Assembly (NCBI GenBank): GCA_902519465.1
Contig: CABYJW010000003.1
Coordinates: 857 to 64,856 of the forward strand
Length of the DNA stretch: 64,000 nt
Origin: an uncultured Pelagibacteraceae bacterium
GTDB taxonomy: Bacteria > Pseudomonadota > Alphaproteobacteria > Pelagibacterales > Pelagibacteraceae
Direction of reading: 5' to 3'
A program made the position numbers and the translations under genes. This document shows positions 25,801-35,666 of the stretch, one piece after another (position 1 is the first letter of the stretch; each line of letters opens with the position of its first letter). The notes under the pieces were generated by a model. It had not been told where the DNA came from and ran no database searches. It was given only the letters and a program-made list of their open reading frames with translations.

Positions 25801-26875
25801 TGAAGATTTTTTTTAAAGTTAAAATTAATTTTTTATTTTCGTAGCTGTTTCCAATCGTAACTCTTAAAGAATTTTTAATGTCATAAACGTCCATTTGCCT
25901 TACTAAAATTCCCGAATTTGCTAATTTATTAAATACTTGGGATGAGTTTAACTTCACATAATTAAAATTGAAAAGAAAAAAATTTACATTTGTTTTGTTC
26001 GTTGTAATTCCTATTTGATCAGCGACTTCAAATATTTTTTCAGCCCAAAAAGTATTGTGGTCAATTGCTTTTTTTAACCATTTGCTATCTTGCACAGCTT
26101 GTGTGGCTGCAAAAAGAGCAGGTCTACTGACATTGAATGGTGGTTTAATTTCATAAAGCTTCTTTATAATATTTTTTGAACCATAGCCCCAACCTATTCT
26201 TAATCCCGCTAAACCGTAGATTTTGGAGAAAGTTCTTGTCACTATTACGTTCTCGGATTTAGAGAATAAGTCTATTCCTGATGAATAATTAGAATCATAA
26301 ATATATTCATAGTAAGCATCGTCTATGACTAACAAAATATCACTCCTTAACTTTTTTCTTAATTTAATAATTTCAAATTTGTCTAGGTATGTTCCTGTTG
26401 GATTATTAGGATTTGCTAAAAAAACAATTTTAGTTTTTTTGTTTACACAATTTAAAATTGAATTGACAGAAGCTTTAAAATTTTCTTCTTTAGCATATCT
26501 CACTTTAGCTCCAAACATTCTACTATAAATTCTGTAAATTATAAAACTGTATTCTGGAACAATAACTTCGTCACCTTTATTTAAAAAAAGTTTACAAACT
26601 AATTCAAAAATTTGATCAGAACCAGATCCAAGTATGATTCTCTCTTTTTTAAGATTAAATTTTTTTGCAAGAACTTTTCTGAAAAAAGTTCCATCTGAGT
26701 CCGGGTATCTAACAAATCCTTTGCCTATAGAGTTATATGATTTTACAGCCTTTGGGCTTGGTCCTAAAGCTGACTCATTTGCTGAAAGCTTTATAGGGCT
26801 TCTTCTGCTTTTAAATAAACTAAGACCAGCAACATACTTCTCAGCTATGATTTTTCTTGGCTTGGGTAATTTCAT
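25793..26875 (-). CDS. hisC: histidinol-phosphate aminotransferase
   Basis: 360 aa with LSANESALGPSP, NPNNPTG and RTFSKIYGLAGLRIGW. Confidence 0.85.
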   Translation of the reverse strand: MKLPKPRKIIAEKYVAGLSLFKSRRSPIKLSANESALGPSPKAVKSYNSIGKGFVRYPDSDGTFFRKVLAKKFNLKKERIILGSGSDQIFELVCKLFLNKGDEVIVPEYSFIIYRIYSRMFGAKVRYAKEENFKASVNSILNCVNKKTKIVFLANPNNPTGTYLDKFEIIKLRKKLRSDILLVIDDAYYEYIYDSNYSSGIDLFSKSENVIVTRTFSKIYGLAGLRIGWGYGSKNIIKKLYEIKPPFNVSRPALFAATQAVQDSKWLKKAIDHNTFWAEKIFEVADQIGITTNKTNVNFFLFNFNYVKLNSSQVFNKLANSGILVRQMDVYDIKNSLRVTIGNSYENKKLILTLKKIFNV

Positions 26876-26943
26876 AATATTTTAGATGTCTTATATTAAA
26901 AGCAACTTAATTTGTATAACGTAAATCAAAATATTTGAATAAA

Positions 26944-26972
26944 TTGACATGTTTGTGGCGATTTAGTATACA
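26944..26972 (+). promoter_or_regulatory. near-consensus sigma70 promoter for the metX leader
   Basis: TTGACA (26944-26949), a 17-nt spacer and TATACA (26967-26972). Confidence 0.6.
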
Positions 26973-26977
26973 TTCGC

Positions 26978-27030
26978 GTAGCGCTGATTTAACCAAATTG
27001 CGAGCGCTGAGTAAATGCAGCTAAACAGGG
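26978..27030 (+). promoter_or_regulatory. candidate SAM-II/SAM-V-class riboswitch aptamer
   Basis: P1 is AGCGCU (26980-85) paired with AGCGCU (27003-08). The loop carries GAUUU...UUGC and the 3' tail AAAUGCAGCUAAA can pair to it (UUGC/GCAG, UUU/AAA), giving an H-type pseudoknot upstream of metX. Confidence 0.5.
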
Positions 27031-27038
27031 ATTTTTTT

Positions 27039-27062
27039 ACCCAGTCTAGCTGGGTTTTTTTT
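27039..27062 (+). terminator. leader terminator (riboswitch expression platform)
   Basis: Stem ACCCAG/CUGGGU with a 5-nt loop, followed by U8, 13 nt before the metX ATG. Its 3' arm UAGCUG can alternatively pair with CAGCUA (27018-23). Confidence 0.7.
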
Positions 27063-27074
27063 GGTGAAAACAAA

Positions 27075-28202
27075 ATGACAAATATAAAGAAACTAAATAT
27101 ATCTAAATCTCTTTTGCTTGACTGCAAGCAAACAATCAAAGATTTTCCTTTAGCATACGAAACATACGGAAAATTAAATGAAAACAAAGATAATGCAATT
27201 TTAGTTTTCCATGCTTTAACTGGAGACCAGTTTGTAACTGGATTAAACCCTATAACTAAAAAAGAGGGTTGGTGGGCAACGGCAGTGGGCCCAGGCAAAG
27301 CAATAGATACAAATAAATATTTTGTGATTTGTGCAAATGTAATTGGTGGCTGCATGGGTTCATGGGGGCCTAAAGAAATAGATAGAAAAACTGATGAACC
27401 GTATGGTTTAAATTTTCCAGTTATTACAATCAGAGATATAGTTAAGTCTCAAGAAACTCTTTTAGAATATCTGGGTATAAAAAAACTCTTATGTGTAACA
27501 GGTGGATCGATGGGAGGTATGCAATCTTTACAATTTTGTGCAACTTTTCCTAATAGGACTTTTTCTGCGATGCCCATTGCATGTAGTACAAGTCACAGCG
27601 CTCAAAATATTGCTCTAAATGAATTGGCAAGACAAGCTGTAATGGCTGATCCAGTGTGGGATAAAGGGAAATACATTAAAAAAAATACTCAGCCAAAAAA
27701 TGGTTTAGCTGTAGCTAGAATGGTTGGGCACATTAGTTATTTGTCAGAAAAAGGAATGCAAGAAAAATTTGGTAGAAAACTTCAGGAGAGAGGTGATTAT
27801 GATTTTAGTTTTAATGCAGATTTCCAAGTAGAAAGTTATTTGAGGCACCAAGGATTTGCTTTTGTAGAGAGATTTGATGCTAATTCTATCTTGTATATTA
27901 CAAGAGCAATGGATTATTTTGACCTTTCGAAACAATTTAAAGGTGGGTTGACAGAAGCATTTAAAAATCAAAAAACAAAATTTCTAGTAATATCATTCTC
28001 ATCAGACTGGCTTTATACAACTAAAGAAAATAAGGAGACTGTAATAGCTCTTAATGCAGCAGGAGCTGATGTTTCCTTTGCAGAAATTAAAACAGATAAA
28101 GGACATGACTCTTTTTTAGTAAATGAACCAGAGTTTTTAAAAACTATAAAAGGTTTTATAGATTCAATGCACATAAAATTTAAAAATGAAAAAAGAATTT
28201 AA
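27075..28202 (+). CDS. metX: homoserine O-acetyltransferase
   Basis: HALTGD and GGSMGGMQ motifs. I moved the start from the ORF-track 27015 to the in-frame ATG at 27075 because 27015-27074 covers the leader terminator. Confidence 0.9.
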   Translation: MTNIKKLNISKSLLLDCKQTIKDFPLAYETYGKLNENKDNAILVFHALTGDQFVTGLNPITKKEGWWATAVGPGKAIDTNKYFVICANVIGGCMGSWGPKEIDRKTDEPYGLNFPVITIRDIVKSQETLLEYLGIKKLLCVTGGSMGGMQSLQFCATFPNRTFSAMPIACSTSHSAQNIALNELARQAVMADPVWDKGKYIKKNTQPKNGLAVARMVGHISYLSEKGMQEKFGRKLQERGDYDFSFNADFQVESYLRHQGFAFVERFDANSILYITRAMDYFDLSKQFKGGLTEAFKNQKTKFLVISFSSDWLYTTKENKETVIALNAAGADVSFAEIKTDKGHDSFLVNEPEFLKTIKGFIDSMHIKFKNEKRI

Positions 28203-28779
28203 AGTAATAGCTGAGTTGCTCCCGAAGAATGTAAGGGTGTTAGATGTTGGTTGTGGAGATGGTTCTTTAATGGACCTTTTAATCAAAGAGAAAAATATAG
28301 AAGCTAGAGGATTAGAAATAAAAGAAGAATATGTTAAAAAATGCATTTACAAAGGTTTGTCTGTGATTGAGGGCAATGCAGAGACTGAACTTCATCAATT
28401 CCCAGATCAATCATTTGATTATGTTGTTTTGAGTCAAACACTTCAGGCTTTTTATAACCCAGAAAAAGTTTTAAAGGAATTATTAAGGGTTGGAAAATCA
28501 GCAATTGTATCTATTCCAAATTTTGGTTATTGGAAAGTGAGAACAAGCTTATTAATCTTTGGAAAGATGCCCATGACAAAAACTTTGCCTTATAATTGGC
28601 ATAACACACCTAATCTTCATATGTGCACCATAAAAGATATGTTCAATTTTTGTAATGAAAAAAATATTAAAATGGATAAAATTTTAGGAATAAATGAGGA
28701 TAAAACTTCTCAAATAAAAAGAAGCAACCTTGAGATAAAAAATTTATTTTCAAAAATAGGGATTTTTTTATTAAGTTAG
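28186..28779 (+). CDS. metW: methionine biosynthesis protein MetW
   Basis: 197 aa with VLDVGCGDGSL and VVLSQTLQA, overlapping the metX 3' end. Confidence 0.85.
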   Translation: MKKEFKVIAELLPKNVRVLDVGCGDGSLMDLLIKEKNIEARGLEIKEEYVKKCIYKGLSVIEGNAETELHQFPDQSFDYVVLSQTLQAFYNPEKVLKELLRVGKSAIVSIPNFGYWKVRTSLLIFGKMPMTKTLPYNWHNTPNLHMCTIKDMFNFCNEKNIKMDKILGINEDKTSQIKRSNLEIKNLFSKIGIFLLS

Positions 28780-34536: not shown

Positions 34537-35666
34537 TTAGAATATTTAAAATATTAATACTATTTTTCATGTTTACAGGAAATCTTCATAGTAACACGAA
34601 TGAAAAGCTTTATAAAAAAATTGATTTGTTTGGAGAAGTTTTAGAGAAAATTAAAAAAGAATATGTCGAAGACGTAGATCAATCTGAAATGCTAGATTCT
34701 GCTATTAATGGTGCGCTTCAATCTCTAGATCCCTATTCTGCTTACATGAATCCTGAACTTTTTAAAAGTATGGAAACAGATACGAGGGGGGAGTTTGGTG
34801 GACTTGGAATTGAGGTTGGTATGGAGGCTGGAGTAGTGAAAGTAATTTCCCCAATCGATGATACCCCGGCATCTAGAGCGGGGATTAAATCTGGTGATTA
34901 TATTGTAAAAATTGATGACAAGCAGGTTCAAGGTAAATCACTCATGGAGGCAGTTAAAATGATGAGGGGTCCAATTGATTCAAAAATTAAACTTACAATA
35001 AGAAGAAAAGGTGAAAAAAAAGCTTTAGAAAAGATTTTAAAGAGAGAAATAATTCAAATCAAATCAGTAGAAGCTAAAATAGTACAAAAAAATATCGCCT
35101 ATATAAAATTAAAAGCCTTTAATAGCAACAGTAGTAACCAATTAAATAAAAAAATAAGTGATTTTGAAAGAAAGAATAAACCAATCGGATATATTCTTGA
35201 TCTTAGAAATAATCCTGGAGGACTTTTAACCCAAGCAGTAAGTATTACAGATTTTTTCTTAAACGATGGAGAAATTGTTTCAACTAAAGGGAGGAAATCT
35301 ATTGAGAACAGAAGGTTTTTTGCAAGAAAGGGAGATAAAGTCAATGGAAAGCCCTTAATAATTATAATTAATAATGGCTCTGCATCAGCATCTGAAATAG
35401 TTGCAGGTGCGCTTAAAGATCATAAAAGAGCAATCATACTTGGAGAAAAAACATATGGAAAAGGCTCAGTTCAATCTATTATTCCGCTGAGTGATGGTGG
35501 TGGAATACGGTTAACAGTTTCTAAATACTATTTACCATCAGGTAAATCAATTTCAGATGTGGGTGTAGCTCCAGATATTTTTATTGAAGAGCAGGGTCAA
35601 AATTTTAAAACTGACAGTCCTTCTGATAATCAATTAAATTATGCTTTAAAACTTTTAACTCTATGA
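34533..35666 (+). CDS. ctpA: carboxy-terminal processing protease (S41)
   Basis: 377 aa with a signal peptide, a PDZ domain (GGLGIEV) and S41 motifs LDLRNNPGG and SASASEI. Confidence 0.85.
   Translation: MIRIFKILILFFMFTGNLHSNTNEKLYKKIDLFGEVLEKIKKEYVEDVDQSEMLDSAINGALQSLDPYSAYMNPELFKSMETDTRGEFGGLGIEVGMEAGVVKVISPIDDTPASRAGIKSGDYIVKIDDKQVQGKSLMEAVKMMRGPIDSKIKLTIRRKGEKKALEKILKREIIQIKSVEAKIVQKNIAYIKLKAFNSNSSNQLNKKISDFERKNKPIGYILDLRNNPGGLLTQAVSITDFFLNDGEIVSTKGRKSIENRRFFARKGDKVNGKPLIIIINNGSASASEIVAGALKDHKRAIILGEKTYGKGSVQSIIPLSDGGGIRLTVSKYYLPSGKSISDVGVAPDIFIEEQGQNFKTDSPSDNQLNYALKLLTL

What the first reader, a model, noticed from the sequence alone, without database searches (positions are those of the whole stretch)
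26944..27074. metX leader: near-consensus promoter, SAM-II/V-like pseudoknot aptamer and a terminator/antiterminator switch
The leader starts with TTGACA-17 nt-TATACA (26944-26972). It then has P1 AGCGCU/AGCGCU (26980-85 / 27003-08) enclosing a loop GAUUUAACCAAAUUGCG. The 3' tail AAAUGCAGCUAAA can pair back to that loop (UUGC with GCAG, UUU with AAA), giving an H-type pseudoknot with a U/A triple-helix-like tract as in SAM-II/SAM-V riboswitches. SAM-II is known upstream of metX in alphaproteobacteria and marine metagenomes. Downstream lies the hairpin ACCCAG-UCUAG-CUGGGU plus U8 (27039-27062). The tail segment CAGCUA (27018-23) is exactly complementary to UAGCUG (27047-52), the 3' arm of that terminator. 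Ligand-driven sequestration of the tail would therefore free the terminator, which is OFF-switch logic. The ORF track starts metX at 27015, inside this RNA; the real start is probably 27075.
Basis: partly seen in the sequence, partly recalled or inferred. Interest (0 to 1): 0.55.

Follow-up and report, generated by a model that had tools for sequence, protein, structure and literature searches.

The report
Known SAM-II riboswitch before metX

Summary
The window comes from a Pelagibacteraceae (SAR11) genome. Bases 26979-27030 are a 52-nt SAM-II aptamer. With one offset, it matches all 20 nucleotides that the literature names for the SAM-II crystal structure (2QWY, a metX leader from the Sargasso Sea). 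The next-best site in the window matches 14 of 20.

- **Conservation:** the same leader precedes metX in all 80 related species fetched.
- **Structure support:** P1 covaries, and the ligand-binding pseudoknot strands are invariant.
- **Switch:** a terminator (27039-27055, then a run of eight U, 27055-27062) follows the aptamer. Its loop and 3' arm are complementary to the ligand-binding tail. This gives a terminator/antiterminator OFF switch.
- **Rfam score:** RF00521 gives only 13.3 bits against a gathering score of 36. That shortfall is systematic: 0 of 47 genomes of this family reach the cut-off, while 12 of 13 genomes of the sister family do, at the same locus.
- **Class:** it is SAM-II, not SAM-V.
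- **Start codon:** metX starts at 27075, not 27015.

A SAM-II riboswitch before SAR11 metX, and the promoter-aptamer-terminator layout, were published in 2005-2009. SAM binding and termination were not tested here. Already known; low interest.

The parts
26944..26949 (+). -35 hexamer TTGACA
   Evidence: Read. TTGACA is present in the window and in all 80 orthologous leaders, at 40-44 nt from the G of GAUUU.
26967..26972 (+). Probable -10 hexamer TATACA, 17 nt after the -35. It matches 4 of 6 and has no final T.
   Evidence: At this spacing the orthologues read TA[A/T/C]A[C/T/A]A, with T1 and A2 invariant. The adjacent TAGTA is also invariant. The promoter scan did not list the site. Function as a promoter is inferred.
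26979..27030 (+). SAM-II aptamer, 52 nt, collinear with 2QWY numbering (n = position - 26978)
   Evidence: 20 of 20 literature-named positions match (positions). RF00521 aligns globally at 13.3 bits. The custom model R1 scores 76.7 bits.
26979..26985 (+). P1 5' strand (UAGCGCU)
   Evidence: Pairs with 27003-27009. Four of 7 pairs show compensatory changes across Pelagibacterales: A-U 11 against U-A 11; U-A 12, U-G 10, C-G 9; one C-G to U-A.
26986..26992 (+). L1 (GAUUUAA). G8 and U10-U12 form the major-groove triplex that makes the SAM pocket.
   Evidence: [A/G]AUUUAA occurs in all 81 metX leaders (G in 79, A in L026 and L041) and in the metY paralogue of this genome. The role comes from 2QWY descriptions.
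26993..27001 (+). 5' strands of P2a (CC 26993-94) and P2b (UUGC 26998-27001)
   Evidence: P2b pairs are standard in 63 of 63 leaders and 31 of 31 wider homologues. The P2a C-G pairs hold in 62 of 63.
27003..27009 (+). P1 3' strand (AGCGCUG)
27010..27019 (+). L3. It includes the invariant AAA at 27013-15 (A36 and A37 make A-minor contacts with P1) and the ATG at 27015 that is not a start codon.
   Evidence: Invariant columns. Roles. Start-codon analysis.
27020..27030 (+). 3' strand of P2: G42, C43, U44 (27022, pairs with the adenine of SAM), A45-A47, then GG 27028-29 (P2a). This is the segment the switch competes for.
   Evidence: GCUAAA is invariant. Roles.
27017..27052 (+). Antiterminator hairpin: 27018-23 pairs with 27047-52, and GGG 27028-30 pairs with CCC 27040-42
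   Evidence: This is the minimum-free-energy fold of the leader. It is 5.3 kcal/mol more stable than the terminator state when the U-run is left out. The same holds in 49 of 57 unique leaders and in independent SAM-II copies before metY and metF.
27039..27062 (+). Intrinsic terminator: stem ACCCAGU/GCUGGGU, loop CUA, then a run of eight U (27055-27062, sharing U27055 with the stem)
   Evidence: It is conserved in 80 of 80 orthologues. The basal pair covaries: G-C 55, A-U 4, G-U 2. It forms when the P2 strands are blocked from pairing.
27075..28202 (+). metX (homoserine O-acetyltransferase), true start at 27075
   Evidence: NF001209 scores 503.6 bits against a cut-off of 331. The first ATG follows the U-run by 2 nt in 72 of 81 loci and by 12 nt in the window's subclade (4 loci). 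The ATG at 27015 is in frame only in the window.
28186..28779 (+). metW, overlapping the end of metX. Presumably the same transcript.
   Evidence: TIGR02081 scores 245.5 bits; PF07021 also matches.

Best explanation
The leader of the metX-metW operon in this SAR11 genome is a SAM-II riboswitch that acts as a transcriptional OFF switch.

1. Transcription starts at about 26979, just after a TTGACA-17-TATACA promoter.
2. The first 52 nt (26979-27030) form the SAM-II aptamer. This is the P1 hairpin, plus an H-type pseudoknot in which UUGC and CC of the loop pair with the GC(U)AA...GG tail. The loop's UUU tract lies in the major groove of that helix.
3. When SAM is bound, its adenine pairs with U27022 and its sulfonium sits between the carbonyls of U26989 and U26999. 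The tail is then held in the pseudoknot, the downstream hairpin 27039-27055 forms, and RNA polymerase terminates in the run of eight U (27055-27062).
4. When SAM is scarce, the free tail (27018-27030) pairs with the loop and both arms of that hairpin (27040-27052). This antiterminator lets polymerase read through into metX-metW.

Shown here: sequence identity at all named contact positions, P1 covariation, conservation, and the two mutually exclusive folds.
Inferred from the family and the literature: SAM binding, the transcription start site, and actual termination.
For: - **Organism and genes:** Pelagibacteraceae. metX scores 503.6 bits and metW 245.5 bits.
- **Match to the crystal structure:** 20 of 20 named positions of 2QWY match at one offset. 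The positions are U1, G8, U10-12, U20, U21, G22, C23, C27, G28, A36, A37, G42-A47 and G52, taken.
- **Rfam alignment:** RF00521 aligns end to end, with P1, GAUUU, UUGC and GCUAAA in register.
- **Link to Rfam-positive members:** metX leaders of the sister family score up to 45.6 bits on RF00521, above the gathering score. The same sites match my SAR11 model R1.
- **Covariation:** P1 has compensatory changes in 4 of 7 pairs. No shuffle of 500 reaches the observed covariation score, and versions with the partner slid by 1-3 columns score much lower.
- **Invariant binding helix:** P2b is paired in 100% of cells.
- **Terminator:** found by the scan and present in 80 of 80 orthologues.
- **Antiterminator:** it is the minimum-free-energy fold in the window and in 49 of 57 unique leaders. 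The terminator forms when the P2 strands are blocked. The same logic recurs with different stem sequences in the metY and metF copies.
- **Literature:** SAM-II precedes metX (SAR11_0217) in Ca. P. ubique. SAM-II in SAR11 is described as acting on transcription. The founding paper already notes a promoter next to P1 and terminators, read as an OFF switch.
Against: - The RF00521 score is 13.3 bits, E = 0.37 on 86 nt, well under the gathering score of 36.
- P2a and P2b show no covariation because they do not vary, so the pseudoknot rests on conservation and homology to 2QWY.
- The 2QWY sequence itself could not be fetched. Collinearity was checked only against the 20 positions quoted in papers.
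- The -10 hexamer is weak (4 of 6).
- In 8 of 57 unique orthologous leaders the antiterminator is not the minimum-free-energy fold, and the median energy gap is only 2.3 kcal/mol.
- In the published sulfur-limitation study, the four most upregulated transcripts were osmC, bhmT, metY and mmuM, not metX.
- Several biophysical papers treat the 2QWY RNA as a translational switch.
Confidence: 0.88

Rival explanations
1. The same SAM-II aptamer controls translation instead. On SAM binding, the purine-rich 3' strand of P2 (AAACAGGG) would be a Shine-Dalgarno sequence that becomes hidden. Several biophysical studies of the 2QWY RNA assume this.
For:: papers on 2QWY call the 3' end a putative Shine-Dalgarno sequence and place the AUG immediately downstream. 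In about 36 orthologous loci (none from the window's subclade), an in-frame ATG sits right after the aptamer, 30 nt before the conserved start.
Against: In the window the start codon is 44 nt beyond the aptamer end, and a full terminator lies between them. The ATG next to the aptamer is absent from the window and is replaced by ATA, ACG or other triplets in other clades. The terminator and U-run are present in 80 of 80 loci.
Confidence: 0.06
2. It is a decayed or non-binding relative of SAM-II, and the terminator is a constitutive attenuator. This would explain the low Rfam score.
For: RF00521 gives 13.3 bits, far below the gathering score. That is also the lowest among the SAR11 metX leaders scored (13.3-34.1 bits).
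Against: All 20 named structural and contact positions are intact. The leader is conserved across 80 species with compensatory changes in P1. No genome of this family reaches the Rfam gathering score, including leaders that look like the crystallised RNA.
Confidence: 0.03
3. [quoted passage not shown]
For: SAM-V shares the pseudoknot fold and the contact nucleotides with SAM-II, and it is common in SAR11.
Against: RF01826 finds nothing at this site, yet scores 68.9 bits on the metY leader of the same genome. The element has the 3' P2a pairing and the P1 and loop lengths of SAM-II. No start codon adjoins it.
Confidence: 0.02

Closest known systems
SAM-II riboswitch (Rfam RF00521, 'metA element'; Corbino et al. 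2005, PMC1273637), in particular the metX SAM-II of the Sargasso Sea metagenome (PDB 2QWY) and of Ca. Pelagibacter ubique SAR11_0217 (Meyer et al. 2009, PMC2704228)
   Same: Same gene (metX) and same clade (SAR11). Same 52-nt length, and the same nucleotide at all 20 positions named in the literature. It has P1, an H-type pseudoknot, a U-tract triplex, a promoter just before P1 and an intrinsic terminator after P2.
   Different: Only sequence details differ. P1 is UAGCGCU/AGCGCUG. Positions 17-19 are AAA and position 48 is C. The spacer before the terminator is U-rich. The start codon lies 12 nt after the U-run rather than 2 nt. The Rfam score is unusually low at 13.3 bits.
[quoted passage not shown] P. 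ubique (Poiata et al. 2009; PMC11508383)
   Same: A paralogue in this same genome (G000:C5:29204-29279, minus strand) has a near-identical P1 and loop. It also has a terminator that contains the complement of its GCUAAAGCG tail.
   Different: In the paralogue, a SAM-V aptamer follows the terminator, and the regulated gene here is metY (bhmT in the literature). The metX leader has no second aptamer.
SAM-V riboswitch (RF01826)
   Same: Related pseudoknot fold, the same ligand, and a presence in SAR11.
   Different: SAM-V lacks the 3' P2a element and hides a ribosome-binding site next to the start codon. There is no RF01826 match at this site.

Membership tests
SAM-II riboswitch (RF00521) | P1 hairpin stem supported by covariation | tested here: met
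   Seven pairs, 26979-85 with 27003-09. Four of 7 show compensatory changes in A3 and 3 of 7 in A1. No shuffle of 500 reaches the observed covariation score.
SAM-II riboswitch (RF00521) | H-type pseudoknot P2b: loop UUGC pairs with tail GC/AA, with an unpaired U (U44) between them | tested here: met
   26998-27001 pairs with 27020-21 and 27023-24; U27022 is unpaired. The pairs are standard in 63 of 63 and 31 of 31 sequences. They are invariant, so there is no covariation.
SAM-II riboswitch (RF00521) | Nucleotides reported as completely conserved and forming the SAM pocket: U10-12, U20, U21, G22, C23, G42, C43, U44, A45-47 | tested here: met
   All are present at collinear positions. The list comes from PMC3764141 and PMC3303485.
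SAM-II riboswitch (RF00521) | L3 adenines that dock in the P1 minor groove (A36, A37 with C27-G28) | tested here: met
   A27014 and A27015 with C27005 and G27006 are present. The AAA is invariant in the alignment. Docking itself was not tested.
SAM-II riboswitch (RF00521) | 3' pairing element P2a, which SAM-V lacks | tested here: met
   CC 26993-94 pairs with GG 27028-29. The C-G pairs hold in 62 of 63 leaders. It is only 2 bp, shorter than the Rfam consensus.
SAM-II riboswitch (RF00521) | Score at or above Rfam's gathering threshold of 36 bits | tested here: not met
   13.3 bits. This is an operational cut-off, not a structural feature. None of 47 genomes of the same family reach it. In the sister family, 12 of 13 do, at the same metX locus.
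SAM-II riboswitch (RF00521) | Location upstream of methionine or SAM metabolism genes | tested here: met
   metX and metW lie directly downstream.
SAM-II riboswitch (RF00521) | Selective binding of SAM over SAH | not testable with these tools
   This needs in-line probing or calorimetry.
SAM-V riboswitch (RF01826) | Match to the SAM-V covariance model, and a ribosome-binding site inside the pseudoknot next to the start codon | tested here: not met
   There is no RF01826 match at E up to 10 in 26850-27150 or at this site in the whole genome. The ATG lies 44 nt downstream.
Riboswitch with an intrinsic-terminator expression platform | A G+C-rich hairpin followed by a U-run, plus a mutually exclusive antiterminator that uses an aptamer strand | tested here: met
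   SAM-dependent termination itself was not tested.

The most novel reading that the evidence does not exclude
The short (about 84 nt) terminated SAM-II leader might accumulate when SAM is plentiful and act in trans. Its GCUAAA-containing tail is complementary to the terminator regions of the paralogous SAM-II leaders (metY here; metF and bhmT in relatives). That would couple the methionine operons to each other, in the way the terminated SAM riboswitch RNAs SreA and SreB act in trans in Listeria. Nothing found here supports this. It is simply not excluded.
Probability: 0.03. Interest if true: 0.5.

Novelty: already known. Interest (0 to 1): 0.1.

Why it matters
There is little new biology here. 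A SAM-II riboswitch before metX in SAR11 was reported by 2009, and the promoter-aptamer-terminator layout was described in 2005.

Two practical points are worth recording:
1. Rfam's RF00521 gathering score misses this riboswitch in every genome of the window's family that I sampled (0 of 47). Automated annotation of SAR11 genomes will therefore leave it out and may call metX from a start codon inside the RNA, as the ORF track did here.
2. The natural context of the crystallised metX SAM-II is a conserved transcription terminator. Many biophysical papers assume instead a Shine-Dalgarno sequence next to a start codon.

Tried and rejected
- **Rfam at gathering threshold:** nothing at this site. 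At a permissive E-value, only RF00521 gave a sensible match. The other hits (mir-737, SNORD27, RyhB and others) just match the terminator or U-rich stretch.
- **SAM-V model:** no match here.
counted and found weaker than the canonical register, so rejected.
- **Promoter by statistics alone:** not significant within the window.
- **Third weak R1 hit in the genome (C18:3272-3327, 17.3 bits):** by eye it lacks the conserved SAM-II blocks (no GCGC P1, no UUGC, no GCUAAA). I treated it as noise and did not check ORFs there.
- **Leader-peptide attenuation from the ATG at 27015:** rejected. That frame is not conserved, and in most orthologues the ATG is followed at once by TAG.
- **Poiata et al. 2009 (PMC2764483):** not held in the library.
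- **Text search for the 2QWY sequence:** found nothing, so identity to 2QWY rests on the 20 positions quoted in other papers.

Full report
**What is in the sequence.**
- TTGACA is at 26944-49. After a 17-nt spacer, TATACA is at 26967-72.
- AGCGCU at 26980-85 pairs with AGCGCU at 27003-08. The pair U26979-G27009 can extend this stem.
- The stem encloses a 17-nt loop, GAUUUAACCAAAUUGCG.
- The tail contains GCUAAA at 27020-25.
- A hairpin lies at 27039-27055. The terminator scan gives it 7 pairs and a 3-nt loop. A run of eight U (27055-27062) begins with the last base of the stem.
- CAGCUA at 27018-23 is the exact complement of UAGCUG at 27047-52.

Single-sequence statistics are unimpressive. The fold z-score is -2.37. 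One terminator-like site was found against 0.6 expected. A loosened promoter pattern is expected 1.46 times per shuffled window. The -10 hexamer matches only 4 of 6 and lacks the final T, so the promoter scan did not list it.

**Genes and organism.** The gene downstream is metX: NF001209 scores 503.6 bits against a cut-off of 331. It is followed by an overlapping metW (TIGR02081) and a gloB-like gene. A divergent hisC-like aminotransferase lies upstream. A search with the MetX protein returned 80 loci. All are from Pelagibacteraceae/Pelagibacterales (SAR11) genomes, at 83-94% identity. The window's assembly is a 770-kb genome estimated at 63% complete.

**Rfam result and why it does not refute the finding.** At gathering thresholds Rfam reports nothing at this site. 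With permissive settings, RF00521 (SAM-II) aligns end to end over 26971-27045 at 13.3 bits, against a gathering score of 36. P1, GAUUU, UUGC and GCUAAA are all in register. RF01826 (SAM-V) does not match here.

The low score is systematic:
- metX leaders of five other SAR11 genomes score 13.5-34.1 bits.
- In a sample of 61 genomes of the order, none of 47 from the window's family reaches the cut-off; their best hits are 21.6-30.8 bits.
- In the sister family, 12 of 13 do reach it (up to 45.6 bits), at the same metX locus.
- A model built from the SAR11 leaders (R1, P1 only as structure) scores the window at 76.7 bits and matches those Rfam-positive sites at 44-52 bits.

This gives a continuous chain of homology from accepted SAM-II members to the window. 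R1 matches 137 of 151 genomes of the order, and 102 of 103 genomes that are at least 90% complete.

**Match to the solved structure.** Papers on the SAM-II crystal structure (PDB 2QWY, a metX leader from the Sargasso Sea metagenome) name these features:
- base triples G8-C23-G42, U11-U21-A45 and U12-U20-A46, and the contact U10-U44;
- the adenine of SAM stacked between U21 and G22 and paired to the unpaired U44;
- A47 contacting the methionine part of SAM;
- A36 and A37 docked on C27-G28;
- wild-type U1 and G52.

With the single offset n = position - 26978, all 20 named nucleotides are present in the window. The best other site in 64 kb, on either strand, matches 14 of 20. The aptamer is therefore 26979-27030, the same 52-nt length as the crystallised RNA.

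This fixes the pseudoknot register. UUGC 26998-27001 pairs with G27020, C27021 and A27023, A27024. U27022 is left free for the ligand. CC 26993-94 pairs with GG 27028-29 (P2a). UUU 26988-90 lies in the major groove. Across 63 leaders its C-G pair is kept in only 45, and its G-C pair is a G-U wobble in 40. The canonical four pairs are standard in 63 of 63.

**Comparative support.** All 80 orthologous loci carry the same leader.
- P1 covaries. Among the metX leaders the loop-proximal pair is U-A 50, C-G 8, U-G 5. In a wider set of 31 SAM-II copies from both families of the order, 4 of 7 pairs show compensatory changes: A-U 11 against U-A 11; U-A 12, U-G 10, C-G 9; one C-G to U-A. No shuffle of 500 reaches the observed covariation score, and versions with the partner slid by 1-3 columns score much lower.
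- P2a and P2b do not vary. Their support is conservation and homology, not covariation.
- TTGACA is present in the window and in all 80 orthologues, 40-44 nt before the G of GAUUU. TAGTA just before the -10 is also invariant.
- This puts the predicted transcription start at about 26979, which is position 1 of the crystallised RNA.

**Expression platform.** The free minimum-free-energy fold of the leader keeps P1 and pairs the tail (27018-30) with 27040-52. This destroys the terminator. When the P2 strands are barred from pairing, as they would be in the SAM-bound pseudoknot, the terminator hairpin forms.
- Without the U-run, the antiterminator is favoured by 5.3 kcal/mol in the window.
- It is the minimum-free-energy fold in 49 of 57 unique leaders, with a median gap of 2.3 kcal/mol.
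- The terminator's loop and 3' arm (UUUAGCUG, or UCUAGCUG in the window) are conserved. That is unusual for a terminator loop, and it is explained by the need to pair with the invariant GCUAAA.
- The basal pair of the stem covaries: G-C 55, A-U 4, G-U 2.
- The same design recurs with a different stem. In the paralogous copy of this genome, the tail GCUAAAGCG faces CGCUUUAGU inside an ACCACCG/CGGUGGU terminator. Copies before metF and metY in other genomes show the same.

**Start codon.** The first ATG after the U-run starts the conserved MetX N-terminus. It lies 2 nt after the U-run in 72 of 81 loci and 12 nt after it in the window's subclade (4 loci). The ATG at 27015 lies in L3 of the aptamer and is in frame only in the window. 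In most orthologues it is followed immediately by TAG. The true start is 27075.

**Comparison with what is known.**
- The founding SAM-II paper already states that a near-consensus promoter usually lies a few nucleotides before P1. It also says many representatives have an intrinsic terminator between P2 and the ORF, implying an OFF switch.
- Meyer et al. [quoted passage not shown] P. ubique.
- Smith et al. 2016 repeat this and describe SAM-II as acting on transcription.

This finding is therefore another orthologue of a published element. It is a correct reading, not a discovery.

**Limits.**
- SAM binding, the start site and termination are inferred, not shown.
- The 2QWY sequence could not be fetched and was checked only through positions quoted in papers.
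- In the published sulfur-limitation study, the four most upregulated transcripts were osmC, bhmT, metY and mmuM, not metX.

**Earlier notes of this scan.** The notes returned for this genome concern other parts of the window and did not bear on this finding.

Noticed in passing
G000:C5:29103-29279, minus strand (L001:1400-1576, minus strand): A second SAM-II copy in the same genome (R1 46.7 bits; RF00521 22.4 bits) is followed by its own terminator and then a SAM-V aptamer (RF01826, 68.9 bits). The gene after it is metY (TIGR01326, 563.7 bits). [quoted passage not shown] A relative (L139) shows the same tandem before metY.
   Followed up: partly
Pelagibacterales genomes: The RF00521 gathering score (36 bits) is reached in none of 47 sampled genomes of the window's family. 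Best hits there are 21.6-30.8 bits. It is reached in 12 of 13 genomes of the sister family. Rfam-based annotation therefore misses SAM-II in this SAR11 family as a rule.
   Followed up: yes
L046-L090 (e.g. L072:1455-1500), outside the window: In about 36 orthologous loci an in-frame ATG sits directly after the aptamer (GGGGAUG), 30 nt before the conserved start. It overlaps the terminator stem. This may be why biophysical papers on 2QWY treat the 3' end as a Shine-Dalgarno sequence next to a start codon. The ATG is not conserved in other clades and is absent from the window.
   Followed up: partly
L134, L135, L137, L138, L140-L145 (other Pelagibacterales genomes): SAM-II copies also precede other genes. 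By N-terminal sequence read by eye, these are metF-like genes (L140, L142, L145), metW (L135, L141) and bhmT/mmuM-like genes (L138, L143). Some have A/U-rich terminators, and two have no terminator at all (L137 before metX, L143). In L134 and L144 the first ATG after the U-run runs into early stop codons, so the downstream gene was not confirmed.
   Followed up: partly
window 26961-26969: TAGTA between the -35 hexamer and P1 is invariant across 65 unique orthologous promoters, and the flanking T's are nearly so. This is more conserved than the -10 hexamer at 17-nt spacing. It may be part of an alphaproteobacterial-type -10 region or a protein-binding site.
   Followed up: no
window 35357-35482, minus strand: Rfam match to Rp_sR47 (Rickettsia sRNA47) at 62.0 bits, just over its gathering score of 60. 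It covers only model positions 33-158 of 316. I did not check whether it lies inside a coding region.
   Followed up: no
window 26986-26999: In the window's subclade, GAUUU (26986-90) can pair with AAAUU (26995-99) and so extend P1 in the ligand-free fold. The main clade reads AUAUU there and does not form this extension in the computed folds.
   Followed up: no
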